64,000 nt of DNA from a virus (IMGVR_UViG_3300022555_000017:1-64000), one strand, 5' to 3'; shown: positions 11,252 through 62,990, counted from the stretch's first letter. A program made the numbers and translations. Notes: a model not told the origin generated them from the sequence alone.

Positions 11252-11254
11252 GCA

Positions 11255-11767: not shown

Positions 11768-11769
11768 TA

Positions 11770-16362: not shown

Positions 16363-16382
16363 AAATAGAAAGGATGATATAA

Positions 16383-17823: not shown

Positions 17824-17847
17824 ATATAGAGTGTAGTATAATAAAGT

Positions 17848-18735: not shown

Positions 18736-18785
18736 TATAATAAATTAAAAGATAAAAAATAAAATTATGTAGAAGGAGATTAAAT

Positions 18786-25709: not shown

Positions 25710-25894
25710 TAGATGAATATAACTTTTATATAACAGAATACCCTGATATAGCTGAACTAGTAAATGAATTAGAAGATGCTTTAAAGTCTAATATAATAGA
25801 AACAGAAACTTCAGCTGTATTATATAGTGAATATAAAAAACTAAAAGAGATTGTTATAAAAATAAAAGAACTAGAGGAACTAATTTGTTTATGA
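25700..25894 (+). CDS. Hypothetical protein (64 aa)
   Basis: ORF overlapping its neighbours. Confidence 0.35.
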   Translation: MAIIDEYNFYITEYPDIAELVNELEDALKSNIIETETSAVLYSEYKKLKEIVIKIKELEELICL

Positions 25895-26703
25895 AAAGGT
25901 TATACATACAACACAGAACTACATTTGAATCAGAACATAAAATTATACACCCATATCCATTTAGAGAACTGAAAATAAAATTGGATATAAACTCACCTTC
26001 TCAACAGTATATGTATCGTTCATATTTATTAGATGAGCCATATGAAAAAGAAACTATAGATATTTTAACAAAGTATTTAACTAAAGAAGATATATTCATT
26101 GATATTGGTGCCCATATAGGTTATTTTACTATTCTAGGTGCATATTTAGCTGATAAAGTATATTCATTTGAACCTGATACGGATAATTATACACATCTTA
26201 TAGAAAATTGTGTATTAAATAAATTGCCAAATGTTAAAATTAATCAGTCAGTTGTAAGTGATCGCAATGGAAAGGCAACTTTTTATACAAATATAGATAA
26301 TGATGGTGGCCATGCTTTATGGAATCCAGGCTTACATGAATTTAATTATCTATGTAGAGAAAAGCAACTGGTAAAAACTATTACACAAGGAACATTAGAT
26401 ACATTTATATCTTTTCTAAATATAGTTAAGAATAAAGTTAAAGTTATAAAGATGGATACTGAAGGTGCTGAAGTTTTAATATTGAGAGGTATGAAAGATA
26501 TACTACAAAGTGAGTATCTAAAATTAGTTGTATGTGAATATAATTTATTTGGTATGCACAGACTAAGAACAGATGGCGATGAAATGTTTAATATAATGAC
26601 ATTTAATGGATTTAAACCGTATGATGAAAATATGAAACTTATAACACCAGAAAATAGTAAAGATAGAGAAAGAACAGAGAATATATTTTTTATAAGGGGA
26701 TAA
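25885..26703 (+). CDS. FkbM-family SAM-dependent methyltransferase
   Basis: IDIGAHIGYFT motif I-like segment and overall FkbM-like arrangement. Confidence 0.55.
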   Translation: MFMKRLYIQHRTTFESEHKIIHPYPFRELKIKLDINSPSQQYMYRSYLLDEPYEKETIDILTKYLTKEDIFIDIGAHIGYFTILGAYLADKVYSFEPDTDNYTHLIENCVLNKLPNVKINQSVVSDRNGKATFYTNIDNDGGHALWNPGLHEFNYLCREKQLVKTITQGTLDTFISFLNIVKNKVKVIKMDTEGAEVLILRGMKDILQSEYLKLVVCEYNLFGMHRLRTDGDEMFNIMTFNGFKPYDENMKLITPENSKDRERTENIFFIRG

Positions 26704-30542: not shown

Positions 30543-30597
30543 GATTGACTTTTCATCATGGTTGTGGTATAATAAATTAAAAAGTAAGAAAAGGAAT

Positions 30598-39972: not shown

Positions 39973-40613
39973 GTATAAATGTTTTAGTACCGATGGACAA
40001 TGAAAAAATTATAGCAAAAATAGAAAGTCAGTTAGAAACGGATGATACTTTAACAGTATTTAATTTACCTGCATATCCTGCTAGAATTATAGATTCCCTT
40101 TTCTCAAAAACAAAAAATGATAGAATATTATTTATTAGCCCATTTACTTTTGTTATTGCTGATAATTTTATAGAAATGTTTAGAAAAAATGATTTACCTT
40201 TTAATATGTATTTAAGAACATGGGGTGAAGAAATAAATGATTTTGTAAAAGGATCAAAAGGAGATTTCAAATTTAGTGATTCCATATGCTTTTATAAAAA
40301 TAAATATCTGAGAAATTTAACCGATTATTCTAATACTTTATGTTTTGATGATATAATGAAATTATTTATCAAAACATCACATCTAAATATTTATGTACCT
40401 GATACAAGAATAGAAACTTGTAAGGTGATTGAAAAACTTGAAGAGCTTGATGCGATTGATGAAACTAAAGAAATAGTACCTGAAGTGGTAGTTGATGAAC
40501 CTGTACTTAAAAAATCTACGGCTAAAGCTAAAAAGGCATCTGTTAAAACAACTGAAAAGAAAACTGAAGAAGTTAATGTAAAGGAGTGCAATTCTAATAG
40601 CTGGATGGACTAA
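39969..40613 (+). CDS. Hypothetical protein (214 aa) with a K/T/E-rich C-terminal tail
   Basis: ORF; ATGA coupling to the upstream gene. Confidence 0.45.
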   Translation: MSINVLVPMDNEKIIAKIESQLETDDTLTVFNLPAYPARIIDSLFSKTKNDRILFISPFTFVIADNFIEMFRKNDLPFNMYLRTWGEEINDFVKGSKGDFKFSDSICFYKNKYLRNLTDYSNTLCFDDIMKLFIKTSHLNIYVPDTRIETCKVIEKLEELDAIDETKEIVPEVVVDEPVLKKSTAKAKKASVKTTEKKTEEVNVKECNSNSWMD

Positions 40614-41341
40614 TGAAAATTGTTATTTTTTCTTGTGGTTATAACTGTTCTAAATATGTTAAAAATCATTTAGATTCTGTAAAAAATCAGACATTTAAAG
40701 ATTATGTACACATTCTCGTAGATGATTGCTCTGTTGATGGGACATTGGATATAATTTGTCAAAATAGAGACAATAATATGTTTATTCATCGTACAGGTAA
40801 AAATCAAAAATGGATTCAAAATGCAATAAATTTTCTTTCAGTATCAGATGATGATATTGTTATTATATTAGACATGGATGATTGGCTTGCTGATATTCAT
40901 GTCTTTGAAGATATTATAAAAGCATATGAAGAAACAAATTGCTGGATGACATACAGTAAATTCTATTATACATCCAAAAAATCAACATCAGATTGGATAC
41001 CACCATATTCAGAACAAACGCTAAAAGATTCATCATTTAGAAAAAGTATATGGTCATTCACGCATCTCAGAACCTTTAAAGGATTTCTCTGGAATAAACT
41101 CAACAAAGAAGATTTAAAAGATAAAAATGGTAAATATTTCAAGTATGCTTATGACCAAGCTATATTCTTTCCTATGCTTGAAATGTCATCACCAGATAAA
41201 ATCCAAAGAATAGATAAAGTTCAGTATATATACAATGATAACAATCCTTTACAAGTAGAAAAGTTGAATCGTAAAGAGCAAGAAGAAATAGCAAAATGTG
41301 TAAGATCAAAAAAACCATATCAAAGGCTTATAAATGGATAG
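40613..41341 (+). CDS. GT2-family glycosyltransferase
   Basis: IVIFSCGYNCSKYVKNHLDSVKNQTFKDYVHILVDDCSVDGT is a canonical GT-A/GT2 N-terminus. Confidence 0.7.
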   Translation: MKIVIFSCGYNCSKYVKNHLDSVKNQTFKDYVHILVDDCSVDGTLDIICQNRDNNMFIHRTGKNQKWIQNAINFLSVSDDDIVIILDMDDWLADIHVFEDIIKAYEETNCWMTYSKFYYTSKKSTSDWIPPYSEQTLKDSSFRKSIWSFTHLRTFKGFLWNKLNKEDLKDKNGKYFKYAYDQAIFFPMLEMSSPDKIQRIDKVQYIYNDNNPLQVEKLNRKEQEEIAKCVRSKKPYQRLING

Positions 41342-42830
41342 AAGAATATTAATAATAAGTAATCTTTATAACTGTGAAAAGTATGTAGAAAAGCATATAA
41401 AAAGTATATTAAAACAATCATATAGTAACTGGAATCTAATTTTAATAAATGATGGCTGTACTGATAATACTGATAGAGCTGTAAGAAACTATATGCCAAA
41501 ACTTCCTAAAATAGAATATGTTGTTAATGAATCTCAAAAGGGAATGGCATTAAATGTCTATAAAAATGTACTTAAATATACATCTGATGAAAATACTGAT
41601 GATATAATTTATATAATGAATGGTGCTGATTGGCTACCGCATGAGAATGTTTTCAAGCAACTAAATGAACTATATGAAAAGGGTTGTTTAGCAACTTGTG
41701 GCGGATCAATGCTAAGCAATAAAAAAAGATATTTCTATAACTATTTCTATGACGATATTATTAATAAAATGTATAGAAAAGATGGAGAATTTTATAGTCC
41801 TGTAACATTTAACGCAATGTTATTTTATAAATTAAAAACTTATGACTTATTTAAAAATGATTATTCATCAATAGGTTGTTACAAAGAAGCTATTGAATAT
41901 TCCATAATTGATATGGTGCCTAAGGAATCAATATCATTTATTAAAAATGAACCAATATATGTTTTTAATGTTGAATATAATAAAAGAGAAAAATGCGATA
42001 AAGTTGCAAGAGAATATTATAAATCTCTATCATTTAATGAAATAAATGTAGAACATGATAATATAGATGAAGAAGAAATACCTGAAGGTGATAATGTGCA
42101 TTTTATAGTATTCGCATCAGGGTATAATTGTGAAAAATGGATTAATAAACATATTGATAGTATATTGAGCCAGACATATAAAAATTTTACATATATTATT
42201 GTTGATGATCAAACAACAGATGGTACATATAAGAAGATTTGCGAATATAAAGATGAAAGAATAAAAGTATATAGACCACTAGTAAATCAAAAATGGTGTA
42301 AAAATGCGTGGGATTATTTAAGGCCAAATATAGTAAATGATGAAGATGTTGTTGTCGTTGTCGATTTAGATGACTGGCTTTCGCATGATACGGTACTAGA
42401 AAAATTAAATAAAATATACAAAAAAGAACATTGTTGGGTAACTTATGGTAGCCATACAAGAGTTAGTACTGAAAGAGCTAGAACTAATCCTGTATCACAA
42501 ATAATTTTAGATAACAAATTATACAGAAACACAGATTGGGAATACTCACATTTAAAAACATTTAAGGCATTTTTATATTTAAATATAGAAGAAAAAGATT
42601 TTAAATCATCTGATGGTGAATGGTTATTACACACATATGATAAAGCATTAATGTTTCCTATACTTGAAATGTCACCAGCGGATAAGATAAAGCATATAAA
42701 AGAGATATTGTATGTTTATAATAATGAAAATCCGCTAAATGTAGGTAAAGTAAACAGAAAAGATGGTAAAAAAACATATGGTGTATGGTTAAGAGAGCAG
42801 CCAGTATATCCAGAACTAGTGAGGGAATAA
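41334..42830 (+). CDS. Tandem double GT2-family glycosyltransferase (two GT-A domains, 498 aa)
   Basis: ILIISNLYNCEKYVEKHIKSILKQSYSNWNLILINDGCTDNT and HFIVFASGYNCEKWINKHIDSILSQTYKNFTYIIVDDQTTDGT. Confidence 0.7.
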   Translation: MDRRILIISNLYNCEKYVEKHIKSILKQSYSNWNLILINDGCTDNTDRAVRNYMPKLPKIEYVVNESQKGMALNVYKNVLKYTSDENTDDIIYIMNGADWLPHENVFKQLNELYEKGCLATCGGSMLSNKKRYFYNYFYDDIINKMYRKDGEFYSPVTFNAMLFYKLKTYDLFKNDYSSIGCYKEAIEYSIIDMVPKESISFIKNEPIYVFNVEYNKREKCDKVAREYYKSLSFNEINVEHDNIDEEEIPEGDNVHFIVFASGYNCEKWINKHIDSILSQTYKNFTYIIVDDQTTDGTYKKICEYKDERIKVYRPLVNQKWCKNAWDYLRPNIVNDEDVVVVVDLDDWLSHDTVLEKLNKIYKKEHCWVTYGSHTRVSTERARTNPVSQIILDNKLYRNTDWEYSHLKTFKAFLYLNIEEKDFKSSDGEWLLHTYDKALMFPILEMSPADKIKHIKEILYVYNNENPLNVGKVNRKDGKKTYGVWLREQPVYPELVRE

Positions 42831-43768
42831 TGAATATACTTGTTGATGGTGGCGAAGGTCATGTTTTAACTCAAAGAATAACGCCATATTTAAATAAAAT
42901 TGGGCATTCTATTGTTAAATATCCCTCTAACTATGATATACATTTAGCTTTCGTTAGATTTTCATACAATTCTAATGTGCCTAGAATAGTTAGGATTGAT
43001 GGTATATATTACGATACAGATATAAATTATAATAATAGAAATTCTGGTATAAGTATGTCGCATTCATCAGCAAAAGGTATTATTTATCAAAGTGACTTTT
43101 CAAGAATGATGTGCGAAAGATATTTGAGCCCTCGTAAAAAAGATACTATATATTCTATAATTCATAATGGTATTGATCCAATGTGGTGCGGGGAATCAGT
43201 AGAACATAAAGCATTTAATATAGTTGTATCTGCAAAATGGAGGCGTCATAAAAGATTATTAGAAACAATTAATATATTTTTAAAATTTAATAAAATCATA
43301 CCAAATTCTAATCTTCTTATATTGGGTAAATTACATGACAATAAAGAAATTAAACATTCCAACATAAAATACTTTGGTCATTTAGATTATATTCAAATGA
43401 AAGATGTATTCAAATATTCTGATGTATCTATGCACTTATCTAAAAAAGATTCATGCCCAAATACCGTTGTTGAAACAATTGGCGCTGGAATACCAACAAT
43501 AACAACAAATTCATGTGGCGGTGCAGTTGAAATGTGTAAACTAACTGAAGGTTGTATTATTGTAGATGGCGATGGTTCATATTTAGATACTGATCCATGT
43601 AGACCATATAGTGATGAATATAATAAACTATCAAAGGAGGTAGAAGATAATTTAATTGAGGCATTATTAAAAATAGAAAAGGATAAACGACGAGTTATAG
43701 TACCAGAACAATTAACAGCTGAATACACAGCAAATAAATATGTCGAGCTTATAAAAAGTTGTATGTAA
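42830..43768 (+). CDS. GT-B fold (GT4-like) glycosyltransferase (ORF opens at 42785)
   Basis: SCPNTVVETIGAGIPTITTNS resembles the GT4 E..(A)G.P(V/T)I signature. Confidence 0.5.
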   Translation: MNILVDGGEGHVLTQRITPYLNKIGHSIVKYPSNYDIHLAFVRFSYNSNVPRIVRIDGIYYDTDINYNNRNSGISMSHSSAKGIIYQSDFSRMMCERYLSPRKKDTIYSIIHNGIDPMWCGESVEHKAFNIVVSAKWRRHKRLLETINIFLKFNKIIPNSNLLILGKLHDNKEIKHSNIKYFGHLDYIQMKDVFKYSDVSMHLSKKDSCPNTVVETIGAGIPTITTNSCGGAVEMCKLTEGCIIVDGDGSYLDTDPCRPYSDEYNKLSKEVEDNLIEALLKIEKDKRRVIVPEQLTAEYTANKYVELIKSCM

Positions 43769-43827
43769 AAAACATATTGACAATTAACCTCAGATATGTT
43801 AGAATAATACATTAAAGGAGGTACTTA

Positions 43828-44334
43828 TTGATCTACTTCGCATCAGATTACCATTTCAATCACTCGCAAATTATAGATTATTGTAAAAGACCATTTAAAG
43901 ATGTAGAAGAAATGAACAATACAATAATAGAAAATCATAATAGAATCGTTAAAGATGATGATATAGTAGTCTTTTTAGGAGATTTTTGTTTTAAAGATGG
44001 TATTGAATACCTAAGTAAAATGAAAGGTCATTTTCAACTAATAAAAGGAAATCACGATAGAAGAAATGGTTTACCTTGTTTGTTTAAAAAAGCAATATTC
44101 ACACAGTACAATTATAAAATAATGGTAGCACATGATCCAGACACAGTATTTCCTGGCTTTGATTTATATTTTGTAGGCCATGTTCACGACCATTGGAAGT
44201 TTAAAAGAGTTATAAGAGATAAAAAGAAAATGGATATGATAAATGTATCAGTAGATGTATGGGATTTTAAGCCAGTATCTATTGATCAACTTGTTAATTT
44301 TTATAGAGAATGTAAAACGAATGGGAGAAAATAA
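43828..44334 (+). CDS. Calcineurin-like metallophosphoesterase (TTG start)
   Basis: DYHFNH, GDFCF, GNHD and GHVHDHW metal-binding motifs; aaaggagg RBS. Confidence 0.65.
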   Translation: MIYFASDYHFNHSQIIDYCKRPFKDVEEMNNTIIENHNRIVKDDDIVVFLGDFCFKDGIEYLSKMKGHFQLIKGNHDRRNGLPCLFKKAIFTQYNYKIMVAHDPDTVFPGFDLYFVGHVHDHWKFKRVIRDKKKMDMINVSVDVWDFKPVSIDQLVNFYRECKTNGRK

Positions 44335-44335
44335 T

Positions 44336-44710
44336 ATGATAGAAGAAATTGTTGATGATGTAGAAATTGTTTTGGGCACTGTAATTGATTTAAAAGGATT
44401 TTCTTTGGGATTTATAAAGAACATTCAAGAGGCATTAAAAGTCAATTCATCCTTTCAGGATTTCCAAGACGATTTTGATAAGGGAATGTATACGGATGAA
44501 ATGGAAGCATACCTTAATGACAATACTAGTGAGTTTAAAGTATGTTATGATGATATAAATGAATCGTTTATATTTTACATTCCCATGAACTCAGAAGATA
44601 TTGAAGATAAAACTATCAGAGAACTAAAAGAAAAATTGATTGGTGATATGGAAATATTTACTTTATTTATATCATATGATGATGTAGATATTTTTGCACT
44701 AGAGGATTAA
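44336..44710 (+). CDS. Hypothetical acidic protein (124 aa)
   Basis: gggag RBS before the ATG at 44336. Confidence 0.4.
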   Translation: MIEEIVDDVEIVLGTVIDLKGFSLGFIKNIQEALKVNSSFQDFQDDFDKGMYTDEMEAYLNDNTSEFKVCYDDINESFIFYIPMNSEDIEDKTIRELKEKLIGDMEIFTLFISYDDVDIFALED

Positions 44711-44711
44711 C

Positions 44712-45677
44712 ATGGATAGATTTATATGGAAAAATGGTGAGATTCTACCTGAATATGAAGCAACAGTGAGTATATATGATTCTGCAATGATGCTTGGCGA
44801 TACAATTTTTACTATGCTCAGAACATTCAATAAAGAATTATACCTCATTGATGAACACCTTGAAAGATTATTTGATAACTTAAAATACGTTAGAATGTCT
44901 ATACCATATGATAAATATGAAATAAAAAATGCACTATATGATGTAATGGATGCCAATAAGTTCAATGATGATGATGAACACAGACTGATGATAAACTGCA
45001 CGCGGGGTTTATTATCACTATATCAAGATGTTGAACACTCTAAAGGCCCTAATGTTATAATTGCCGATTTTCCCTTAAAATGGACGGTAGCAGGAATGGG
45101 AAAGCTATTCGATGAAGGTATCAATATGATAACCCCAAATCAAAGGTCTATCCCTTCTCGTTTGCTTGATGCTAAAGTAAAATGTAGATCAAGATTACAT
45201 TACCTAATGGCTAATATTGAAGTATCACAATATGCAGGTGAAAATAACTGGGCATTATTGTTAGACGAAGATGGATTTGTAGCAGAAGGAACCGGTGATA
45301 ACTTCTTTATTGTTAAAGATAAGATTATATATACACCTGAACCTCGTAATATACTTAGAGGTATTACAAGAAAAAGAATAATGAAAATGGCTCATGTAGT
45401 CGAAAAAAATATTGATATATATGATGTAATGACTGCTGATGAAGCGTTTATTTCAGGTACGCCTTTTGTTGTTCTACCAGTAGTATCATTAAATGGTGTT
45501 AAAATAGGAACAGGTAAAACAAAAGACTATACAGAGTTTTGGTATTTATTATCAAAATGGTGCTGCGAATATGGTGTTAATATTAAAGAGCAAATACAAG
45601 AATGGGATAAAAAATATGTAGAACTACAATCAAGAAAAGGTGCTTCACCATATAAATTTAAGGAGAATAAAATATGA
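44712..45677 (+). CDS. Class IV (BCAT/DAAT-type) PLP aminotransferase
   Basis: FIWKNGEI...EHLERL and LLDEDGFVAEGTGDNFFIVKDKIIYTP align to IlvE (IWFNGE...EHMQRL, MLDVNGYISEGAGENLFEVKDGVLFTP). Confidence 0.75.
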   Translation: MDRFIWKNGEILPEYEATVSIYDSAMMLGDTIFTMLRTFNKELYLIDEHLERLFDNLKYVRMSIPYDKYEIKNALYDVMDANKFNDDDEHRLMINCTRGLLSLYQDVEHSKGPNVIIADFPLKWTVAGMGKLFDEGINMITPNQRSIPSRLLDAKVKCRSRLHYLMANIEVSQYAGENNWALLLDEDGFVAEGTGDNFFIVKDKIIYTPEPRNILRGITRKRIMKMAHVVEKNIDIYDVMTADEAFISGTPFVVLPVVSLNGVKIGTGKTKDYTEFWYLLSKWCCEYGVNIKEQIQEWDKKYVELQSRKGASPYKFKENKI

Positions 45678-46333
45678 AAAATATCTCAGTTGTAATACCC
45701 GCAAGAGGCGGAAGTGTAGGAATACCAAATAAGAATATGATGCTGATAAATAATAGACCATTATTAACATATACTATAGAAAAAGCATTAAATCTAAATG
45801 CTGACAATATTTATGTAAGTACAAATGATGAAGATATAAAAAACTATGTCAATAATAATTATAGAAATATTATTATTGATGATAGACCAGATGAACTAGC
45901 AACAAGTGCATCGACAATGGAAGAACTTATATCGTATATGTTAGGAAAATATAACATGGATATATTAATTCTATTACAACCCACATCACCGCAAATTGAT
46001 GCCGAATATATACATAAAGGTGTTCTTGATGTTTTAAGAGGTTATGATTCAGCACTTAGTATCTATAGAACGGATGAAAATGATGTTTTAATGTGGGATT
46101 TGGATACAAAAATACCTTTAAACTATGATCTAAAAAATCGTGGAAATAGACAGGAAAGAAAAGATAAATATGCTGTTGAAACTGGTGGCTTTTATATTAC
46201 TACTAAAGAACAATTTATAACAAGTAATTGTAGAATAGGTGGTAATATTTCATTCATTGAAATCCCATTTTGGCAATCGTTTGAGATAGATGAAATGATA
46301 GATGCTCTAATGATAGCAAAACTAATGAGGTAA
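45674..46333 (+). CDS. Acylneuraminate cytidylyltransferase family (NeuA/PseF-like CMP-nonulosonic acid synthetase)
   Basis: N-terminal ISVVIPARGGSVGIPNKN is the CTP_transf_3 P-loop-like motif. Confidence 0.6.
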   Translation: MKNISVVIPARGGSVGIPNKNMMLINNRPLLTYTIEKALNLNADNIYVSTNDEDIKNYVNNNYRNIIIDDRPDELATSASTMEELISYMLGKYNMDILILLQPTSPQIDAEYIHKGVLDVLRGYDSALSIYRTDENDVLMWDLDTKIPLNYDLKNRGNRQERKDKYAVETGGFYITTKEQFITSNCRIGGNISFIEIPFWQSFEIDEMIDALMIAKLMR

Positions 46334-46336
46334 AAT

Positions 46337-47134
46337 ATGCTAAATGGTCTTGGATATACGAATGTAGAATTAAGCTCAGTATGTAATAAAAGTTGCTGGA
46401 TGTGTGGAAGGCGTAAAAGAGATAAAGAACAACGTGGCGATGAATATGGATTTATGGAATATGAAACTGCTATAAAAATTGCAAATGAAATACCAGCTGG
46501 AACCATGATTCAGTTGCATAATAATGGTGAAGGTCTTATGCATCCAGAATTTGGTAAGATGTTAAAATTATTTAAACATTGTATAACTAATATTGTATCT
46601 AATGGAAAACTTATACTTAAAAAAGCCGATGAAATAATTGATCATCTTGATATACTTACAATTTCTATCATACAAGGTGATGATGGTGAAGAACAAATAG
46701 ATCAATATACTATATTAAAAAAGTTTTTACTATTAAAAGGTGATAAAAAACCTAATGTTATTTTAAGATTTCTTGGTGATTGTGATGAGAGAACTTATAA
46801 TGATTTTAACTTACTTCATGTAAATAGAGTTTTACATATACCTGATGGAAGTAGAAATTATACTAAAACACCTACCATACCAGAACATGGAGTCTGCACA
46901 GACCTCTTAAATCATCTTGCTATTGATCGTCACGGTGATGTGAGTTGCTGTGTTAGATTTGATCCTAATAGAATGCTTGTATTAGGCAATATAATGTATT
47001 CTTCTTTAGATGAATTATGGAATTGCGAAAAAAGATTAAGTATGATTAAAAAACACATAGAGGGCAAACGATCAGAAGTGCCGTATTGCGGTAATCAATG
47101 CGAGTTCTGGGGCATTGCAACTTCGGGAAAATAA
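46337..47134 (+). CDS. Radical SAM protein with a Cys-rich (SPASM-like) C-terminus
   Basis: CNKSCWMC (CxxxCxxC); C-terminal CC...C...C..C cluster. Confidence 0.55.
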   Translation: MLNGLGYTNVELSSVCNKSCWMCGRRKRDKEQRGDEYGFMEYETAIKIANEIPAGTMIQLHNNGEGLMHPEFGKMLKLFKHCITNIVSNGKLILKKADEIIDHLDILTISIIQGDDGEEQIDQYTILKKFLLLKGDKKPNVILRFLGDCDERTYNDFNLLHVNRVLHIPDGSRNYTKTPTIPEHGVCTDLLNHLAIDRHGDVSCCVRFDPNRMLVLGNIMYSSLDELWNCEKRLSMIKKHIEGKRSEVPYCGNQCEFWGIATSGK

Positions 47135-47887
47135 ATGCATTATAAAATGGCAGATTTTGTAAAATTAAAACAAACTGATACAGTATTTTTAATTGGAAGT
47201 GGATCATCACTAAATGAAATAACAGAGGATCAATGGTCTATAATAAATAGTTATGATAATATGGGTGTAAATAATATATTTTATCACCCATTTTTTATAC
47301 CTAAATCACTTCATTTAGAACTTAAAAAATATGATTGGGGTATTGCAAAAGAAAGACTTGAAGAAAAATGGGAATTGGGTTGGAAAAATGTAAATTATAT
47401 TTTCCCAATCGAAAGATATGCATATATATCAGGTGCTATAGGGCATGAAAAAAAGGCTAAAATTTTTACTTATAGATATGAAAGAAGAGGATTTCATCCT
47501 AAAAAACATCCAGATACAAAAATAGATGCAAATTTTAATCCCGATAAAATTTTATATAAATCATATGATACTAGTGTTTCAACTATTATACAAATGTTAT
47601 ATTTAATGGGGTATAAAAATATAATACTTTGGGGTTTAGATATGAGAGATAGTAAATATTTTTGGACTGATATGGAACCTGAAGTTAGAGGATTAGTTCA
47701 TGATTTATGGAACAAACAAAGAGAAGGAAAAGATAAAAATACACCACATAATGCATCTCATTTACAAGATTATATAACAGATTTTAATGATAAATTTATG
47801 AAGCCAAAAAGAAGAGAGATTTTTGTTGGTCATAAATCAACATTATTATATCCAAAACTACAATATATTGATATAGATAAATTATAA
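47135..47887 (+). CDS. DUF115/MptE-like (Maf-like) domain protein, paralog 1
   Basis: VFLIGSGSSL near the N-terminus resembles the GSGPS motif of DUF115/Maf proteins; paralogous to the next gene. Confidence 0.4.
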   Translation: MHYKMADFVKLKQTDTVFLIGSGSSLNEITEDQWSIINSYDNMGVNNIFYHPFFIPKSLHLELKKYDWGIAKERLEEKWELGWKNVNYIFPIERYAYISGAIGHEKKAKIFTYRYERRGFHPKKHPDTKIDANFNPDKILYKSYDTSVSTIIQMLYLMGYKNIILWGLDMRDSKYFWTDMEPEVRGLVHDLWNKQREGKDKNTPHNASHLQDYITDFNDKFMKPKRREIFVGHKSTLLYPKLQYIDIDKL

Positions 47888-48621
47888 TGCATAATATTAC
47901 AGAACTTCTTAACTATAAAAAAAGTAATATAGCTGTAATTTTAGGCAGTGGATCGTCAATAAATGACATAACAGAACAAGAATGGGAAAAATTAAAAACC
48001 TTTGATCTTTGGGCATTAAATAACTGGGTTTACCATCCTTCAGTAATACCCAATTTTTATCATATAGAAGTTAAACATTATGATGCAGAAATTGTTAAAA
48101 GAAGATTGGAAGAAAAATGGGATAAGTATAAAGATGTTATATATTTAGTGCCTTCTATAAGACAAGATGTAGTAGATGTTATAGGGCATGAAAATGAAGC
48201 TAAAATATTTTATTATGAATATATTAAAAGAAATATATATAAAAATAAAATAAATGCTAATTATAATATAAAAATAAAAGGTATTTTTGTAAGATCATAT
48301 AATACATCATTATCATTATTAATAGATATGTTATATAAATTAAAATATAGATATATTATTTTAGCAGGCGTAGATTTATTGGATTCAAGATATTTTTGGA
48401 CTAATGGCGATCCTAATATATATGGTGAAGTACATCAACAATGGAATAAAGAAATTAGTGGAGGTAAAATTGATGCCCCTCATAAAACTCACCATATTTC
48501 AAATTTCATAATTGATTTTAATAATCAGCATATGAAATCTAAAAAAAGAGAAATATTTTTAATAACTAAAAAATCAAAACTTTATCCAGATTTAAATTGT
48601 ATTAAAATAGAGAATATATGA
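47887..48621 (+). CDS. DUF115/MptE-like (Maf-like) domain protein, paralog 2
   Basis: IAVILGSGSSI...; clearly paralogous to 47135-47887 (EEKW, GHE.EAKIF.Y, YFWT, PKRREIF). Confidence 0.4.
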   Translation: MHNITELLNYKKSNIAVILGSGSSINDITEQEWEKLKTFDLWALNNWVYHPSVIPNFYHIEVKHYDAEIVKRRLEEKWDKYKDVIYLVPSIRQDVVDVIGHENEAKIFYYEYIKRNIYKNKINANYNIKIKGIFVRSYNTSLSLLIDMLYKLKYRYIILAGVDLLDSRYFWTNGDPNIYGEVHQQWNKEISGGKIDAPHKTHHISNFIIDFNNQHMKSKKREIFLITKKSKLYPDLNCIKIENI

Positions 48622-49358
48622 TAGAAAAAAATATAACTATATGCCCCTTATGCCATAGTAAAAGTAATAGAGTAGTGTATAATATAAATTTCACAACATT
48701 ACAATGTAATGATTGTCAATTATATTTTCATAAAAATTATTATACAAAAGAAGAATTATTTAGGTTTTATTCTACAAATTATGGTGTTAGTAGAGGAAAA
48801 AGAGCAAATATAAAAAATCCTGAAAGAATTTTATTTAATGAAAGTAAATATGAATTTTTAAAGGAGAGAAATTGTAGATTAAGATTTATGCCTGTTATAG
48901 ATTCATTTACAGAAAAAAGGAATATACTAGAAATCGGTGCTGATGCAGGTGGCGCTACAAGATATATGATAAAAAGGGGTCATAATGTAGAAGCTGTAGA
49001 ATTATTTAAAGATTATGCTGATAAGCTTACAAAAGAAGGCATTAAAGTTTATAATGATCTATTTGAAAATATTAATTTTAATAAAAAATATGATTTAATT
49101 GTTGCATTAGAAGTGATTGAACACTTTTCAGACCCGTTAAAATGTATAAATAAAATATATAATTTATTAAATACGGATGGTTATTTTATATTTGAAACAC
49201 CTGTAGCAAAAGATGGTTTAGTTGATTCTGCATCATATAGTATAAGACCTTCGCATTATTGTGTATTTAATTCAACTTCTCTAAGTATATTATTAAAAGA
49301 TTTTAAAAATTTACCAAAATTTAATGAAGGCAATGAGGTATATAAAATTAAAAAATGA
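48618..49358 (+). CDS. Class I SAM-dependent methyltransferase with N-terminal Cys4 zinc ribbon
   Basis: CPLCHS...CNDC; LEIGADAGGATRYM (motif I). Confidence 0.55.
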   Translation: MIEKNITICPLCHSKSNRVVYNINFTTLQCNDCQLYFHKNYYTKEELFRFYSTNYGVSRGKRANIKNPERILFNESKYEFLKERNCRLRFMPVIDSFTEKRNILEIGADAGGATRYMIKRGHNVEAVELFKDYADKLTKEGIKVYNDLFENINFNKKYDLIVALEVIEHFSDPLKCINKIYNLLNTDGYFIFETPVAKDGLVDSASYSIRPSHYCVFNSTSLSILLKDFKNLPKFNEGNEVYKIKK

Positions 49359-49663
49359 GTAGATATGAAGATAAAACGATAGAAAAATTATTAGAAGAAC
49401 TTGAAATTGAAGGTGAATTTTTAGATAAAGAGTTAGCAAATATAACAGGAAAAGATAAAATATCACCGGCGGGTGTAGTAAGATCAGTAACAGATGAAGA
49501 AAGAAATACGAAAAAAAGATGGATATGCTCAATTTTAAGAGATATTTATAATCATTCAGATAATGATGATGTAAAAAAATATACAATAGAAGCAGCAATT
49601 CAAGCTAAAAAAATGACAAGAAAATTAGCAGAATATAAAGCAAAGGAATTAAAAAATGAATAA
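49355..49663 (+). CDS. Hypothetical protein (102 aa)
   Basis: ORF, translationally coupled. Confidence 0.4.
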   Translation: MSRYEDKTIEKLLEELEIEGEFLDKELANITGKDKISPAGVVRSVTDEERNTKKRWICSILRDIYNHSDNDDVKKYTIEAAIQAKKMTRKLAEYKAKELKNE

Positions 49664-50228
49664 TATATGTATGTATGGTAGTTATACTGATTATATACCA
49701 TTGCTGAAAGAATATAAAGGTGGTTCTTTTTTAGATGTAGGTGGTAATAATGGTAAAGCAGAAGCATATGCAGAAGGATTTAAATATTTTGTTTTAGAAC
49801 TTTCGCAACCAAAGCATCCACATGAAAATACGATTATAGGGGATATATGTAATTGCCAAGAAATTAAAGATGATTCCTATGATGTAGTATATTCCAATGA
49901 TGTATTTGAGCATCTTTTAGAACCTTGGTCAGCGGCTGAGCACATTATTAGAATATGTAAACCTGGCGGACTAATCATAACAAGTACTGTTTTTTCTTGG
50001 AGATTTCATCCTGTTCCTGTAGATACATTTAGATATACGCATCAAGGACTTGAATATCTTTTTACAAGAACTGGTAAGGTACAAAGTTTAATAAGTAAAT
50101 ATGATATAAGAAAGAGAAGGAAAGATTCAAGAGGTAAAGGTGAATTTGATTTGCCTCCTATTGATGAATTAGGTGGCTGGCGAGAAAATTGGAAAGTACT
50201 ATATGTTTGTAAGAAAAATAAACAATAG
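49656..50228 (+). CDS. Class I SAM-dependent methyltransferase
   Basis: FLDVGGNNGK (motif I), VVYSNDVFEHL, CKPGGLI. Confidence 0.55.
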   Translation: MNNICMYGSYTDYIPLLKEYKGGSFLDVGGNNGKAEAYAEGFKYFVLELSQPKHPHENTIIGDICNCQEIKDDSYDVVYSNDVFEHLLEPWSAAEHIIRICKPGGLIITSTVFSWRFHPVPVDTFRYTHQGLEYLFTRTGKVQSLISKYDIRKRRKDSRGKGEFDLPPIDELGGWRENWKVLYVCKKNKQ

Positions 50229-50237
50229 GAGTAATAT

Positions 50238-51089
50238 ATGAATAATGTGTTATTAGTTGGCGAAATTGGCTTGAATGGAAATGGGGATTTAGAAATAACC
50301 AAAAAACTAATTAATATCTGTCATGCGTTCGGCGTTGACTATGTTAAATTTCAAAAAAGAACATTAGATAAATGTTATACACAAGAAGAACTTAATAAAC
50401 CAAGAGAAAGTCCGTGGGGTACAACAACAAGAGAGCAAAAACAAGGTTTAGAATATAGTAAGGAAGAGTATAATGAAATAGATAAATATTGTAAAATGGT
50501 TGGTATAAAATGGTTTGCATCCGTTTGGGATATAGAATCTGTAAATTTTATTGAAAGTTATGATGTTCCATTTATAAAGATACCATCAGCATTGATCTCA
50601 CACATTGAACTACTGAACTCCGTCAAAAGGTCAGGAATACCTGTTATCATATCAACTGGTATGAGTGAGTGGGAAGAAATTAAAACAGCTATTTCCATTT
50701 TAGGTGATAATCTTAAATATGTTCTACACACAACTTCAAGTTATCCTACCCCTGTTGATGAAATGAATTTAAATAAGATAACAACATTAAAAGATTCAGC
50801 TCCTATTAGTGGTAGCTATAAGATAGGATTTTCAAATCATCACCAAGGAACATTCTTTTGCACAGTTGCAGCAGTTTTGGGTGCTGAGATGATAGAATTT
50901 CATGTAACTTTAGATAGGGCAATGTATGGGTCTGATCAGGCGGCCAGTATTGAGCCAAATGGTATAAGACTTATTGTAGATCACATAAGAGATTTAGATG
51001 TTGCAATGGGTGATGGATATTGGAAAAGGAAAATAGAACCATCAGAAATACCAGTAATAAAAAAATTAAAAAGAAATCTTGACTTTTAA
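50238..51089 (+). CDS. NeuB/PseI-family nonulosonic acid (sialic/pseudaminic/legionaminic) synthase, short form (no obvious SAF domain)
   Basis: N-terminal VGEIGLNGNGDLEITKKLINICHAFGVDYVKFQKR matches the NeuB TIM-barrel N-terminus (IAEIG.NH.G.L..A..LI..A...GADAVKFQ). Confidence 0.6.
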   Translation: MNNVLLVGEIGLNGNGDLEITKKLINICHAFGVDYVKFQKRTLDKCYTQEELNKPRESPWGTTTREQKQGLEYSKEEYNEIDKYCKMVGIKWFASVWDIESVNFIESYDVPFIKIPSALISHIELLNSVKRSGIPVIISTGMSEWEEIKTAISILGDNLKYVLHTTSSYPTPVDEMNLNKITTLKDSAPISGSYKIGFSNHHQGTFFCTVAAVLGAEMIEFHVTLDRAMYGSDQAASIEPNGIRLIVDHIRDLDVAMGDGYWKRKIEPSEIPVIKKLKRNLDF

Positions 51090-62021: not shown

Positions 62022-62990
62022 TTATTTAATTTTGCTATATACCTTATACCAATCTACAAATTCCTTTATACCATCTTCTATAGAGAACTTAGGTTCATAC
62101 CCTAACTCTCTTTTAACCATTGTTAAATCTGATAATGATTCAACTATCTCACCTTTAGGTAGATCAACATATTCTCTTTTTGCTTCAATACCAGTAGTTT
62201 TTTCTATTATATCAAGTAGTTCTTTTAGCTGAACCATTTCACCACGACCCAAGTTATATAGTTTATAATCTATTGGCCTTTCAAATGCTAACATGAAACC
62301 ATTAATAATGTCATCTATATAAGTAAAGTCCCTATACATATTTCCATTATTATTTATTACCACTTTAGTACCATTATACACTGCTTTAACCCATTTGTAA
62401 ACTACCATATCTGGACGGCCCCAAGGCCCATAAACTGTAAAAAACCTTAGCCCTGTTGTTTTTATACCGAAATTTTTATTAAAAGCGTATGCTTCCATTT
62501 CATTAAATTTCTTTGTTGCGGCGTATGTATTCAATGGGCGTTCCGTACTATCTGTTTCCTTATAAGGCGGCACTAAATCACCATAAACACTACTACTTGA
62601 CGCATATACAAAGTTCTTTACATTATAATTTTTAGCAGCATTGATTATATTTGTAAACCCATAGCAGTTAGTTAAGATATATGGTTCAGGATTTGTTAAA
62701 GAATACTGAACCCCGGCATATGCTGCTAAGTTGCATACATAGTTGGGCTTTTCTTTCTTAAAAATCCAATCTACATTATCTCTTGATGCTATATCCATTT
62801 CATAGTTCTTAAATGATGGATTTTTTACAATCTGTTTAATCCTTTCTCTCTTTAGCATTGCATCATAATATGTATTAAAGTTATCAACACCAACAACTTT
62901 TACACCTAACTTTAATAGTTTCCTACATAAATGAAACCCTATAAAACCAGCTGAACCTGTTACTAAAACTTTATCATCCTTTTCAAACAT
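62022..62990 (-). CDS. NAD-dependent epimerase/dehydratase (SDR family, nucleotide-sugar 4-epimerase-like)
   Basis: VLVTGSAGFIGFHLCRKLL Rossmann motif and YAASKKFNE-type Y..K catalytic dyad (YAATKKFNE). Confidence 0.7.
   Translation of the reverse strand: MFEKDDKVLVTGSAGFIGFHLCRKLLKLGVKVVGVDNFNTYYDAMLKRERIKQIVKNPSFKNYEMDIASRDNVDWIFKKEKPNYVCNLAAYAGVQYSLTNPEPYILTNCYGFTNIINAAKNYNVKNFVYASSSSVYGDLVPPYKETDSTERPLNTYAATKKFNEMEAYAFNKNFGIKTTGLRFFTVYGPWGRPDMVVYKWVKAVYNGTKVVINNNGNMYRDFTYIDDIINGFMLAFERPIDYKLYNLGRGEMVQLKELLDIIEKTTGIEAKREYVDLPKGEIVESLSDLTMVKRELGYEPKFSIEDGIKEFVDWYKVYSKIK

What the first reader, a model, noticed from the sequence alone, without database searches (positions are those of the whole stretch)
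40613..51089. About 10.5-kb phage-encoded nonulosonic acid and glycan modification island
A contiguous co-directional cluster contains GT2 at 40613, a double GT2 at 41334, GT4 at 42830, a metallophosphoesterase, a class IV aminotransferase, a NeuA/PseF-like CMP-sugar synthetase, a radical SAM/SPASM enzyme, two DUF115/Maf-like paralogs, two SAM methyltransferases (one zinc-ribbon-fused) and a short NeuB/PseI-like synthase. Additional sugar genes lie elsewhere in the window: a GT-B at 13668, an FkbM methyltransferase at 25885 and an SDR epimerase at 62022. The combination of NeuB, NeuA and Maf-like proteins is the signature of pseudaminic/legionaminic-type nonulosonic acid synthesis and transfer. 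Candidate roles are decoration of virion proteins, the host surface or other targets. The pathway looks non-canonical because it has a class IV aminotransferase where PseC/DegT would be expected, a radical SAM enzyme, and a NeuB without a SAF domain. It may therefore make a novel modified sugar.
Basis: partly seen in the sequence, partly recalled or inferred. Interest (0 to 1): 0.8.

Follow-up and report, generated by a model that had tools for sequence, protein, structure and literature searches.

The report
Phage operon for an unusual sialic-acid-like sugar
A roughly 197-kb T4-like phage from anoxic lake water carries an operon that probably makes, activates and attaches a modified nine-carbon acidic sugar. 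Its biosynthetic core is an uncharacterised four-gene module that is also widespread in anaerobic bacteria and archaea.

Summary
Positions 40613-51089 form one tightly packed, co-directional block in a T4-like phage. It encodes GT2, a double GT2, GT4, a metallophosphoesterase, a class IV aminotransferase, a CMP-sugar synthetase, a radical SAM enzyme, two paralogous 250-aa proteins, two methyltransferases and a 283-aa NeuB.

The pseudaminic/legionaminic reading is not supported. No PseB/C/H/G or LegB/C/H/G/NeuC equivalents were found. The CMP-synthetase also carries the arginine that specifies Kdn (C5-OH) in a characterised enzyme.

The Maf-like, GT4 and GT2 genes are phage-specific additions. 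All island proteins are soluble, which favours a cytoplasmic acceptor, probably virion proteins; this was not tested.

Verdict: real, recurrent in uncultured phages, and a new variant of a known kind.

The parts
40613..41341 (+). GT2-family glycosyltransferase (242 aa), soluble
   Evidence: Pfam PF00535, 1.9e-16. No hydrophobic 19-aa segment. Weak relatives (24-29% identity) in related viral islands L002, L123 and L125. Absent from the cellular cassettes, 0 of 80.
41334..42830 (+). Protein with two GT2 domains (498 aa)
   Evidence: Pfam PF00535 with two stretches, 8.9e-33; residues 11-149 and about 267-362.
42830..43768 (+). GT4-type (GT-B, Glycos_transf_1) glycosyltransferase. The ORF could also start at 42785.
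   Evidence: Pfam PF00534, 6e-10. Gene callers on identical contigs start it at the position equivalent to 42830, giving 312 aa. 29-53% identical orthologs lie in the same viral islands as the Maf-like gene, directly beside it in several of them.
43777..43805 (+). Best sigma-70-like promoter match of the region (TTGACA-17-TAGAAT, with an extended -10 TG). It lies in the only sizeable intergenic gap of the island.
   Evidence: 11 of 12 positions match. The total number of such matches in the region is not above chance, so only its position and quality single it out.
43828..44334 (+). Small metallophosphoesterase (168 aa, TTG start after an AAGGAGG ribosome-binding site). It is a candidate phosphatase for a phosphorylated ulosonate intermediate; this role is inferred.
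   Evidence: Pfam Metallophos_2 at 23 bits, below the cut-off of 27. All five calcineurin-type motifs are present. It is not conserved in related islands or in the cellular cassettes.
44336..44710 (+). Acidic 124-aa protein (32 D+E, 9 K+R), function unknown
   Evidence: No Pfam hit.
44712..45677 (+). Fold-type IV (class IV) PLP aminotransferase of a distinct, NeuB-linked subfamily
   Evidence: Pfam PF01063, 2.5e-42. Best NCBIfam model is a branched-chain aminotransferase at 186 bits against a cut-off of 363. Lysine residues (a K-V-K motif) at the PLP-lysine position and the AEGTGDN motif are conserved. 45-61% identical orthologs sit next to SAF-less NeuB, CMP-synthetase and rSAM genes in phages and bacteria.
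45674..46333 (+). CMP-ulosonate synthetase (NeuA/CMAS family) with a Kdn-type arginine in the pocket for the sugar's C5 substituent
   Evidence: Pfam PF02348, 8.7e-17. Best solved relative is 9t4z, the Prymnesium CMP-Kdn synthetase, at 1.5e-22. Arg187 aligns with the gate-keeper Arg196 of that enzyme. The arginine is kept in 50 of 59 loci read (seven of them contigs of this same phage).
46337..47134 (+). BtrN-like 'twitch' radical SAM enzyme (265 aa); proposed to oxidise a sugar hydroxyl to a ketone
47135..47887 (+). Minimal Maf/sialyltransferase-fold protein A (250 aa); proposed CMP-ulosonate transferase
47887..48621 (+). Minimal Maf/sialyltransferase-fold protein B (244 aa), a paralog of A (43% identity)
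   Evidence: Related islands carry one copy that is closer to A or to B depending on the contig.
48618..49358 (+). SAM methyltransferase with an N-terminal four-cysteine zinc ribbon
   Evidence: Pfam PF13489, 1e-17, plus a cysteine-cluster hit. 56-61% identical orthologs in viral islands L032 and L125, and 23-30% identical relatives in 10 of 46 cellular cassettes.
49355..49663 (+). 102-aa protein of unknown function, conserved in the closest viral islands
   Evidence: tblastn 36-42% identity in L032, L123 and L124, in the same relative position. No Pfam hit.
49656..50228 (+). Second SAM methyltransferase (190 aa)
   Evidence: Pfam PF13489, 5e-12.
50238..51089 (+). SAF-less NeuB-family ulosonate synthase (283 aa)
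   Evidence: Pfam PF03102, 1.5e-65. NCBIfam NeuB_NnaB 210 bits and PseI 149 bits, both below their cut-offs. Best PDB hit is the 290-aa SAF-less 6ncs. The conserved motifs of the family align with solved NeuBs: GEIGLNGNG, KFQ, KIPS, SNHH, IEFH.
62022..62990 (-). SDR sugar epimerase/dehydratase, 11 kb away on the other strand. Its link to the island is uncertain.
   Evidence: Pfam Epimerase, 1.5e-54. The best NCBIfam models (dTDP-glucose dehydratase, TviC, GalE) are all below cut-off.
25885..26703 (+). FkbM-family methyltransferase, outlying. Relatives lie inside some related islands.
   Evidence: Pfam PF05050, 4.9e-15. Relatives with 29% identity in L003, L023/L024 and L122, and a Methyltransf_21 gene in L033.

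Best explanation
The island is a phage operon that synthesises, CMP-activates, tailors and transfers a modified nine-carbon 2-keto-3-deoxy sugar acid (a nonulosonic acid).

Proposed steps:
1. The SAF-less NeuB condenses phosphoenolpyruvate with a host hexose. A Kdn-type route from mannose or mannose-6-phosphate is the most likely; in that case the small metallophosphoesterase may remove the phosphate.
2. The NeuA-type enzyme makes the CMP-sugar. Its binding pocket carries the arginine that, in a characterised enzyme, selects a small polar C5 substituent rather than an N-acetyl group.
3. The BtrN-like radical SAM enzyme oxidises one hydroxyl to a ketone, and the class IV aminotransferase converts the ketone to an amine. 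The order of this step relative to CMP activation is unknown.
4. The two SAM methyltransferases methylate the product.
5. The two minimal Maf/sialyltransferase-fold paralogs transfer the CMP-sugar. GT4 and the three GT2 domains build the underlying glycan or extend it.

Every protein of the island is soluble, and there is no flippase, polymerase or lipid-carrier enzyme. The acceptor is therefore most likely a cytoplasmic macromolecule, and phage structural proteins are the leading candidate.

Shown here: the family and fold assignments, the catalytic motifs, the gene linkage and the co-occurrence statistics.
Inferred: the substrates, the position that is aminated, the order of the steps and the acceptor.
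For: Families and motifs.

Genetic linkage:
- In 46 of 46 GTDB loci of at least 15 kb, the rSAM ortholog lies within 10 kb of a SAF-less NeuB ortholog. A CMP-synthetase is present in 39-46 of the 46.
- 32 of 46 carry an aminotransferase: 13 class IV, 20 class III, and only 1 with both. A further 8 carry a short-chain reductase instead. This is the pattern expected if a keto intermediate is either transaminated or reduced.
- Cellular orthologs of the class IV aminotransferase also sit next to NeuB and the CMP-synthetase.

Kdn-type hint: the best solved relative of the CMP-synthetase is a CMP-Kdn synthetase. The gate-keeper arginine is conserved in 50 of 59 loci read (seven of them contigs of this same phage). 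HAD phosphatase and SIS isomerase genes occur in some cellular cassettes.

Transfer genes travel with NeuB in viruses: all 9 of 9 viral loci found with the Maf-like profile have NeuB within 10 kb, usually with rSAM, GT4 and the CMP-synthetase. Their GC content spans 0.26-0.49.

Soluble proteins only.

Operon-like packing.
Against: - No biochemical data exist for any member of the rSAM, class IV aminotransferase or SAF-less NeuB subfamilies concerned.
- The aminotransferase is about 40% identical to genuine branched-chain aminotransferases. It could instead supply an amino-acid-derived acyl group.
- The arginine argument rests on one characterised enzyme and on a sequence alignment.
- The metallophosphoesterase is not conserved in related islands.
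- One close relative (L032) has the rSAM, class IV aminotransferase, GT4, Maf-like and zinc-ribbon methyltransferase genes but no NeuB or CMP-synthetase within 10 kb.
- Nothing in the window identifies the acceptor.
Confidence: 0.55

Rival explanations
1. This is a canonical pseudaminic or legionaminic acid pathway. The missing early steps (dehydratase, DegT aminotransferase, acetyltransferase, NDP-sugar hydrolase) are provided by the host, and the phage supplies only the late enzymes and the Maf transferases.
For: NeuB + NeuA + Maf-like is the combination seen in flagellin glycosylation islands. The weak best NCBIfam hit of the CMP-synthetase is PseF, at 62 bits. An SDR with weak LegB similarity (113 bits) lies at 62022. 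A Lake Biwa virus with neuA/B/C plus pseA/pglC/pglD has been reported.
Against: All the Pse/Leg equivalog scores are far below their cut-offs. NeuB scores higher with the Neu/Leg-type model than with PseI. The CMP-synthetase keeps the arginine that clashes with a C5 N-acetyl group in the characterised CMP-Kdn synthetase. The orthologous cellular cassettes usually lack the Pse/Leg early genes and carry rSAM, aminotransferase, glyoxalase, SIS and HAD genes instead.
Confidence: 0.12
2. The island is an auxiliary metabolic cluster that remodels the host cell surface during infection (capsule, lipopolysaccharide, S-layer or flagellin). The effect would be to block superinfection or alter recognition, rather than to decorate the virion.
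For: This is the usual reading of viral polysaccharide genes. The cellular cassettes sit in surface-glycan loci next to AglB, flippases and LIC12162-family proteins. Maf enzymes modify flagellin in the cytoplasm, so a host protein could be the acceptor.
Against: The phage brings six transferase domains of its own, and none of the membrane or export machinery. Their orthologs are absent from the cellular cassettes, with only 1 of 80 loci positive, and that contig looks viral. The phage looks lytic and T4-like, and the scanned ORFs gave no integrase-family hit.
Confidence: 0.2
3. The glycosyltransferases hypermodify phage DNA, as T4-like phages do with glucose or arabinose, and the ulosonic acid is part of a DNA-linked glycan.
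For: The island lies among replication and nucleotide-metabolism genes: primase, gp32, NrdDG, UvsX. Diverse phage glycosyltransferases that decorate DNA are known.
Against: None of the ORFs scanned in the window gave a thymidylate-synthase-like hydroxymethylase or TET-type dioxygenase hit. The two papers on DNA glycosylation that I read do not mention ulosonic acids. Maf and sialyltransferase-fold enzymes are known to act only on protein or glycan acceptors. An acid-labile, negatively charged sugar on DNA has no precedent.
Confidence: 0.05
4. The aminotransferase and the radical SAM enzyme are unrelated passengers: an ordinary branched-chain aminotransferase and a peptide-maturing SPASM enzyme that happen to lie in a sugar island.
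For: The best named matches are branched-chain aminotransferases and SPASM peptide or cofactor maturases.
Against: Co-occurrence with NeuB is 46 of 46 for the rSAM. The class IV aminotransferase is adjacent to NeuB in both cellular contexts examined. No precursor-peptide gene was evident. The closest structure is BtrN, which modifies a sugar-like substrate, not a peptide maturase.
Confidence: 0.05

Closest known systems
Kdn (2-keto-3-deoxy-D-glycero-D-galacto-nononic acid) pathway of Bacteroides thetaiotaomicron and Prymnesium parvum: Kdn-9-P synthase, phosphatase, CMP-Kdn synthetase (PMC6200933, PMC12934254)
   Same: A NeuB-family synthase and a CMAS-family CMP-synthetase. The phage CMP-synthetase's best solved relative is PpNeuA (1.5e-22), and it keeps the Kdn gate-keeper arginine. 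No hexosamine-processing genes are needed.
   Different: There is no HAD phosphatase in the phage; it has a metallophosphoesterase instead. The radical SAM enzyme, aminotransferase and methyltransferases are additional, so the end product would not be plain Kdn. The substrate of this NeuB has not been tested.
Maf (motility accessory factor) flagellin nonulosonic acid transferases of Campylobacter, Helicobacter, Aeromonas and Magnetospirillum (PDB 5mu5; PF01973/DUF115)
   Different: The proteins are only 244-250 aa against about 600 aa, and the N- and C-terminal Maf domains are missing. They fall below the Pfam threshold and share 13% identity with 5mu5. The family is essentially viral. The acceptor is unknown and need not be flagellin.
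BtrN (butirosin) and SpeY (spectinomycin) twitch radical SAM dehydrogenases, each paired with an aminotransferase
   Same: Size of about 250-270 aa. The CX3CX2C motif plus a single four-cysteine auxiliary cluster with matching spacing. Best sequence and fold match. A neighbouring aminotransferase, as in aminocyclitol pathways. The BtrN/BtrS logic is cited from my own knowledge of those pathways.
   Different: 21% identity. The context is ulosonic acid synthesis, not aminoglycoside synthesis. The partner aminotransferase is class IV or class III, not DegT-type. Activity is untested.
Kdo8N biosynthesis in Shewanella (KdnB oxidase plus KdnA aminotransferase acting on Kdo). Cited from my own knowledge, not checked here.
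   Same: The concept of late-stage oxidation and transamination of a completed 2-keto-3-deoxy sugar acid.
   Different: A metal-dependent alcohol dehydrogenase-type oxidase instead of a radical SAM enzyme; an eight-carbon acid; no sequence relationship was tested.
Virus-encoded glycosylation: mycobacteriophage virion glycosylation and the autonomous glycosylation machinery of giant viruses (PMC4691112, listed and not read; mycobacteriophage work from my own knowledge), and viral neuA/B/C clusters noted in lake viromes (10.1101/655167)
   Same: The virus carries both sugar-nucleotide synthesis genes and soluble glycosyltransferases. DUF115/MptE-like and GT29-like proteins are already annotated in uncultured phages and in a mimivirid.
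   Different: None of those reports describes the rSAM/class IV aminotransferase/SAF-less NeuB module or the minimal Maf-like family. No phage ulosonic acid has been demonstrated chemically in the papers I could search.

Membership tests
NeuB / nonulosonate synthase family (PF03102) | Profile match above the curated threshold across the TIM-barrel domain | tested here: met
   221.5 bits against a cut-off of 22.1, residues 24-260.
NeuB / nonulosonate synthase family (PF03102) | Conserved PEP- and metal-binding motifs | tested here: met
   GEIGLNGNG, KFQ, KIPS, SNHH and IEFH align with the same motifs of 6ncs and 1vli. Checked by eye on the HMMER alignment.
NeuB / nonulosonate synthase family (PF03102) | C-terminal SAF (antifreeze-like) domain, as in N. 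meningitidis NeuB, PseI and LegI | tested here: not met
   The protein is 283 aa with no SAF hit. About 30% of the family also lacks this domain.
Specific equivalogs NeuB_NnaB (TIGR03569) and PseI (TIGR03586) | Score above NCBIfam's equivalog cut-off | tested here: not met
   210.6 bits against 399.65, and 149.1 bits against 340.25.
CMP-sialic acid / ulosonate synthetase (PF02348) | Profile match above threshold | tested here: met
   62.1 bits against 22.6. PDB relatives are PpNeuA, mouse CMAS and NmCSS.
CMP-Kdn-specific synthetases | Arginine at the position of PpNeuA Arg196 in the C5 pocket | tested here: met
   Arg187 aligns with it in the motif CRIGG, against CRLGE in PpNeuA. The arginine is present in 50 of 59 loci read (seven of them contigs of this same phage). 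This rests on a sequence alignment only.
PseF equivalog (TIGR03584) | Score above the equivalog cut-off | tested here: not met
   62.2 bits against 205.7.
Pseudaminic acid pathway | PseB, PseC (DegT), PseH and PseG present | tested here: not met
   No DegT, GNAT/hexapeptide or PseG-type hit in the ORFs I scanned (all but one ORF of at least 100 aa outside overlaps on the opposite strand). The only SDR scores 34.5 bits against PseB's cut-off of 407.75. The host could supply these enzymes.
Legionaminic / neuraminic acid pathway | LegB/C/H plus a hydrolysing 2-epimerase (LegG/NeuC, PF02350) | tested here: not met
   No Epimerase_2 hit in the window. The SDR scores 113.5 bits against LegB's cut-off of 475.
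Maf / DUF115 / MptE-like (PF01973) | Profile match above the gathering score | tested here: not met
   15.7 and 14.5 bits against 34.6. Distant family members give repeated sub-threshold hits to the same part of the model.
Maf / DUF115 / MptE-like (PF01973) | Sialyltransferase-like fold of the central Maf domain | tested here: met
Maf / DUF115 / MptE-like (PF01973) | Full Maf architecture (about 600 aa with flanking domains) and a flagellin acceptor | tested here: not met
   244-250 aa, a single domain. The acceptor cannot be tested here.
Twitch-type radical SAM dehydrogenases (BtrN-like) | CX3CX2C radical SAM cluster motif | tested here: met
   C16, C20 and C23 are invariant in 31 sequences.
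Twitch-type radical SAM dehydrogenases (BtrN-like) | A single auxiliary cluster bound by four cysteines in a shortened SPASM (twitch) domain | tested here: met
   C187, C205, C251 and C255 are invariant. C205, C251 and C255 align with cysteines of BtrN. The assignment of BtrN's cluster ligands comes from my own knowledge.
Twitch-type radical SAM dehydrogenases (BtrN-like) | Closest fold is BtrN | tested here: met
Twitch-type radical SAM dehydrogenases (BtrN-like) | Two-electron oxidation of a secondary alcohol to a ketone | not testable with these tools
   Supported only indirectly, by the alternation of class III aminotransferase, class IV aminotransferase and SDR genes next to the enzyme.
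Branched-chain amino acid aminotransferase (IlvE equivalogs) | Score above the NCBIfam cut-off | tested here: not met
   186.5 bits against 363, 164 against 245.55, and 147 against 279. It is a fold-type IV PLP enzyme (145.7 bits against 28.5), with family-specific changes at positions that line the substrate pocket in E. coli IlvE (the reference sequence was written from memory).
Calcineurin-like metallophosphoesterases | Five metal-binding motifs | tested here: met
   SDYH, GDF, GNHD, AHD and GHVH. The Pfam score is below the cut-off.

The most novel reading that the evidence does not exclude
The four genes SAF-less NeuB, CMP-synthetase, BtrN-like radical SAM enzyme and class IV (or, in other lineages, class III) aminotransferase encode a previously unrecognised route to amino-nonulosonic acids. 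In this route a Kdn-type acid is built first and aminated afterwards, by oxygen-independent radical oxidation followed by transamination. The known Neu, Pse and Leg pathways instead assemble the acid from an amino-hexose.

The route would be widespread in anaerobic bacteria and archaea. Large phages would have captured it and coupled it to a virus-specific family of minimal Maf-like transferases to glycosylate their own particles.
Probability: 0.3. Interest if true: 0.85.

Novelty: new variant of a known kind. Interest (0 to 1): 0.7.

Why it matters
Nonulosonic acids are key surface sugars in host-microbe and phage-host recognition. All characterised bacterial routes to the amino forms start from amino-hexoses.

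The linkage found here points to a different, oxygen-independent chemistry that is present in many uncultured anaerobic lineages and is not annotated as a pathway anywhere I could search. It comprises a radical SAM dehydrogenase-like enzyme, interchangeable class III or class IV aminotransferases, a SAF-less NeuB and a CMP-synthetase.

The phage version is compact and self-contained: about 7 kb, soluble enzymes, and its own transferases. That makes it a convenient system for reconstituting the pathway, and a source of small sialyltransferase-fold enzymes.

If virions carry the sugar, this would be, as far as I could find, the first chemically defined ulosonic acid decoration of a bacteriophage. 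That would bear on adsorption, on immune or defence evasion, and on particle stability.

Tried and rejected
- Megablast of the island against 50,697 deposited phage genomes found nothing. UvsX is under 30% identical to anything there. NeuB has only three tblastn hits in that collection.
- A single-sequence pattern scan of viral contigs with MafA found nothing. The alignment-based scan worked.
- A profile of the Maf-like family against PDB sequences gave no significant hit. Only structure comparison resolved it.
- PHROGs and NCBIfam gave nothing for the Maf-like proteins.
- I first read the HMMER alignment as showing loss of the carboxylate-binding arginine of branched-chain aminotransferases. 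A MAFFT alignment places a conserved arginine there (DDEHR), so I dropped that argument.
- DNA hypermodification was considered and set aside: none of the ORFs scanned gave a hydroxymethylase or dioxygenase hit, and the DNA-glycosylation papers I read make no mention of ulosonic acids.
- A role for the metallophosphoesterase as a conserved pathway member was rejected, because it is absent from every related island.
- Literature searches for a radical SAM enzyme linked to NeuB, or for a chemically shown phage nonulosonic acid, returned nothing relevant. The one exception is an annotation-level note of neuA/B/C in a Lake Biwa virus.
- No tRNA genes were found.
- I could not identify the host.

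Full report
**What the window is**

The 64-kb window has about 29% G+C. It encodes a T4-like replication and recombination set:
- gp32
- UvsX
- gp46-like and gp47-like nuclease subunits
- RNase H
- primase
- NrdD and NrdG
- a Ro60/TROVE protein
- many homing-endonuclease-like genes

It has no tRNA genes. It has no near relative among 50,697 deposited phage genomes.

Identical proteins occur on at least 23 metagenomic contigs, the longest being 197,316 bp. Some record names carry 'BUCK21', and one sample is JGI 3300009502. From memory I believe these are oxygen-stratified freshwater lakes; I did not verify this. The anaerobic ribonucleotide reductase and the radical SAM enzymes fit an anoxic habitat.

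**Checking the observation**

They overlap or abut (gaps of -8 to +9 nt), apart from one 59-nt gap at 43769-43827. That gap holds the best sigma-70-like promoter match of the region.

Profile searches confirm the following:
- GT2 (40613)
- a double GT2 (41334)
- a GT4-type enzyme (42830)
- a class IV aminotransferase (44712)
- a CTP_transf_3 cytidylyltransferase (45674)
- a SPASM/radical SAM protein (46337)
- two class I SAM methyltransferases (48618, with a four-cysteine N-terminus, and 49656)
- a NeuB domain that fills a 283-aa protein, so there is no SAF domain (50238)

The metallophosphoesterase is below the Pfam threshold, but it has all five metal-binding motifs.

Two small ORFs were not mentioned: 44336-44710, which is very acidic, and 49355-49663.

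**The 'Maf-like' paralogs**

The proteins at 47135 and 47887 are 43% identical to each other. Sequence methods barely see what they are:
- Pfam PF01973 gives E 0.014 and 0.031, far below the gathering score.
- PHROGs and NCBIfam give nothing.
- A family profile finds nothing in PDB sequences.

Only 18 close homologs exist among 5.8 billion proteins, and none has a precomputed Pfam domain. A profile search finds 1,263 more distant representatives. Some of these are fused to GT2 or TPR domains, and several again give faint PF01973 hits.

These are single-domain proteins of 244-250 aa, however, and not full-length Maf proteins of about 600 aa. Structure search of viral proteins shows that DUF115/MptE-like and GT29-like proteins are already annotated in uncultured phages and in a mimivirid.

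**The radical SAM enzyme**

Its only significant match among PDB sequences is BtrN, the radical SAM dehydrogenase of butirosin biosynthesis (E 6e-7).

The family is large, with at least 1,468 homologs of about 265 aa that are 50-60% identical. It has seven invariant cysteines:
- C16, C20 and C23, forming the CX3CX2C motif
- C187, C205, C251 and C255

C205, C251 and C255 align with cysteines of BtrN in the HMMER alignment. The spacing matches the four ligands of BtrN's single auxiliary cluster as I remember them.

Fold does not fix the chemistry. The same neighbourhood of structures includes decarboxylases, epimerases and dehydratases.

**A conserved module across domains**

The genomic context is the strongest evidence. 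Several individual loci set the pattern:

- In Methanolobus the rSAM ortholog lies beside a 276-aa NeuB, a CTP_transf_3 gene, a class III aminotransferase, a glyoxalase-fold protein and a methyltransferase. The cluster sits next to AglB and a flippase.
- On an 868-kb contig the rSAM ortholog lies with a short NeuB, a CMP-synthetase, an SDR, a glyoxalase-fold protein and methyltransferases.
- Orthologs of the phage's class IV aminotransferase form a family of more than 5,000 proteins, the closest ones 56-60% identical.
- In a mouse-gut Lachnospiraceae contig and in a Desulfobaccales contig, these aminotransferase orthologs also sit beside a short NeuB and a CMP-synthetase. HAD phosphatase, SIS isomerase, SDR and radical SAM genes lie nearby.

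A scan of one genome per GTDB species with the rSAM profile returned 80 loci from more than 15 phyla. These include Omnitrophota, Lentisphaerota, Planctomycetota, Desulfobacterota, Patescibacteria, Woesearchaeota and Methanoperedens.

Counts among the 46 loci of at least 15 kb:

| Feature within 10 kb of the rSAM ortholog | Loci (of 46) |
|---|---|
| NeuB ortholog, 39-54% identical to the phage's | 46 |
| CMP-synthetase | 39-46, depending on the query |
| Class IV aminotransferase | 13 |
| Class III aminotransferase (always with the glyoxalase-fold gene) | 20 |
| Both aminotransferase classes | 1 |
| No aminotransferase, but an adh_short reductase | 8 |
| None of the three | 6 |

A typical gene order is NeuB, CMP-synthetase, class IV aminotransferase, rSAM.

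Two unrelated aminotransferase classes, or a reductase, alternate next to the same radical SAM enzyme. This is what one expects if that enzyme makes a keto intermediate that is then transaminated or reduced. The conclusion is an inference from linkage, not a demonstration.

**Which sugar**

No Pse or Leg early enzymes were found. The scan covered all but one ORF of at least 100 aa outside overlaps on the opposite strand; 933-1313 was not scanned.
- The lone SDR at 62022 is far below the PseB and LegB cut-offs.
- There is no Epimerase_2, DegT or acetyltransferase hit.

The CMP-synthetase's best solved relative is the CMP-Kdn synthetase of Prymnesium parvum: 83.7 bits, against 57.5 for mouse CMAS and 33.3 for the meningococcal enzyme. 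That enzyme's preference for Kdn over Neu5Ac depends on Arg196, and the R196L mutation switches the specificity (PMC12934254). Using Gln110, Tyr183 and Arg196 to set the numbering offset, Arg187 of the phage enzyme aligns with Arg196. The same arginine is present in 50 of 59 loci read (seven of them contigs of this same phage).

Kdn is made from mannose-6-phosphate and PEP by a NeuB-family enzyme, followed by a phosphatase (PMC6200933). HAD and SIS genes occur in part of the cellular cassettes.

I therefore favour a Kdn-type core that is aminated and methylated later. I rate this sub-claim at about even odds. The amine may or may not be at C5, and whether tailoring precedes or follows CMP activation is open.

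The absence of a SAF domain is common, at about 30% of known synthases (PMC8208679), and is not in itself remarkable.

**What is specific to phages**

The Maf-like, GT4 and GT2 genes are absent from the cellular cassettes. Only 1 of 80 loci has them. That one is a 179-kb contig binned as 'Candidatus Borrarchaeum', and its gene content looks viral.

In IMG/VR, all nine loci found with the Maf-like profile have NeuB within 10 kb. Most also carry the rSAM, GT4 and CMP-synthetase genes, and five carry the class IV aminotransferase. Further NeuB-anchored viral loci show the same set. Across all these viral loci the G+C content runs from 0.26 to 0.55. The island therefore recurs in phages of different hosts.

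None of the island's proteins has a hydrophobic segment. There is no flippase, polymerase or lipid-carrier transferase.

Taken together, the phage brings six soluble transferase domains and no export machinery. This favours glycosylation of a cytoplasmic acceptor. Phage structural proteins are the most economical guess, and host proteins such as flagellin are the alternative. I could not test this.

**Comparison with what is known**

The island works like a combination of three known systems:
- a Kdn-type synthesis and activation pathway
- the BtrN-plus-aminotransferase logic of aminocyclitol antibiotics
- Maf-type transfer

It does not qualify as a Pse, Leg or Neu5Ac pathway on the defining features I could test.

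Viral neuA/B/C clusters have been noted once at annotation level, in a Lake Biwa virus. I found no paper that links a radical SAM enzyme to NeuB, or that shows an ulosonic acid on a phage.

I class the finding as a new variant of a known kind.

**Limits**

- All functional statements rest on homology, predicted structures and gene linkage.
- The E. coli IlvE reference sequence and the list of BtrN cluster ligands come from memory.
- One close relative (L032) lacks NeuB and the CMP-synthetase within 10 kb. They may lie elsewhere on that 219-kb contig.
- The host is unknown.

Noticed in passing
window 19731-20664 (+): A cold-shock (CspA-like) gene appears to be split by a group I intron. Rfam RF00028 matches 20163-20464 at 60.8 bits. 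Exon 1 is 19731-19772 ([14 protein letters not shown], ending in T). The intron is about 19773-20505 (ending in G) and carries an HNH endonuclease ORF at 19802-20440. Exon 2 is 20506-20664. Joining the two exons gives a 66-aa Csp-like protein.
   Followed up: partly
window 9719-10600, 12775-13668, 17848-18735, 22927-23805, 29664-30542, 30562-31479, 33183-33878, 51126-52037 (all +): At least eight paralogous ORFs carry CapR-homology, treble-clef zinc-finger and (in several) REase_MTES_1575-like hits. They are scattered between conserved genes: one lies between nrdG and nrdD, one directly follows NeuB, and one directly precedes the GT-B gene at 13668. They look like a family of homing-endonuclease-like mobile genes. 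Two free-standing HNH genes are also present, at 11255 and 19802.
   Followed up: partly
window 17245-17823 (+): An S-adenosylmethionine lyase family protein (PF23780, 8e-12) is encoded by a phage that also encodes a radical SAM sugar enzyme, NrdG and at least three SAM methyltransferases. How SAM degradation and SAM use are reconciled, for example by timing, is unexplained.
   Followed up: no
window 6692-8098 and 8103-9377 (+): Two tandem amidoligase-like ORFs (Pfam Amidoligase_2 for the second; both match phrog_33777, and the first also phrog_7469, amidoligase enzyme). Function unknown.
   Followed up: no
window 55265-56761 (-): A phage-encoded Ro60/TROVE protein with a vWA domain. Rfam at gathering threshold found no Y RNA in the window.
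   Followed up: partly
window 62022-62990 (-): An SDR sugar epimerase/dehydratase gene lies in the roughly 2-kb interval between the gp46-like gene (58831-61020) and the gp47-like gene (62992-63984), an interval that also holds the phage metallopeptidase gene at 61257-61772; the SDR abuts the gp47-like gene. gp46 and gp47 are usually adjacent in T4-like phages (my own knowledge).
   Followed up: no
L033/L041 (GenBank JAHQJS010000001.1, 179,096 bp): This contig was deposited as part of a 'Candidatus Borrarchaeum weybense' (Asgard archaeon) genome bin. It carries the same Maf-like/GT4/CMP-synthetase/rSAM/NeuB island, and its flanks are filled with small unannotated ORFs, like a large virus. It may be a mis-binned virus or a virus of that archaeon.
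   Followed up: no
L029 (Methanolobus sp. WCC1 contig), locus coordinates 3114-18748: The archaeal version of the cassette lies beside the oligosaccharyltransferase AglB. It adds a split transketolase, a transaldolase/FSA-like enzyme and a SIS isomerase upstream of the rSAM-NeuB-CMP-synthetase genes. This suggests an unusual sugar-phosphate precursor, and that the product enters N-glycans.
   Followed up: no
window 20914-21777 (+) and 16383-17255 (+): An SPFH/Band 7 protein with a lipoprotein-like N-terminus, and a DHH-family phosphoesterase-like protein below Pfam cut-off (24.3 vs 28.1 bits), both encoded among the replication genes.
   Followed up: no
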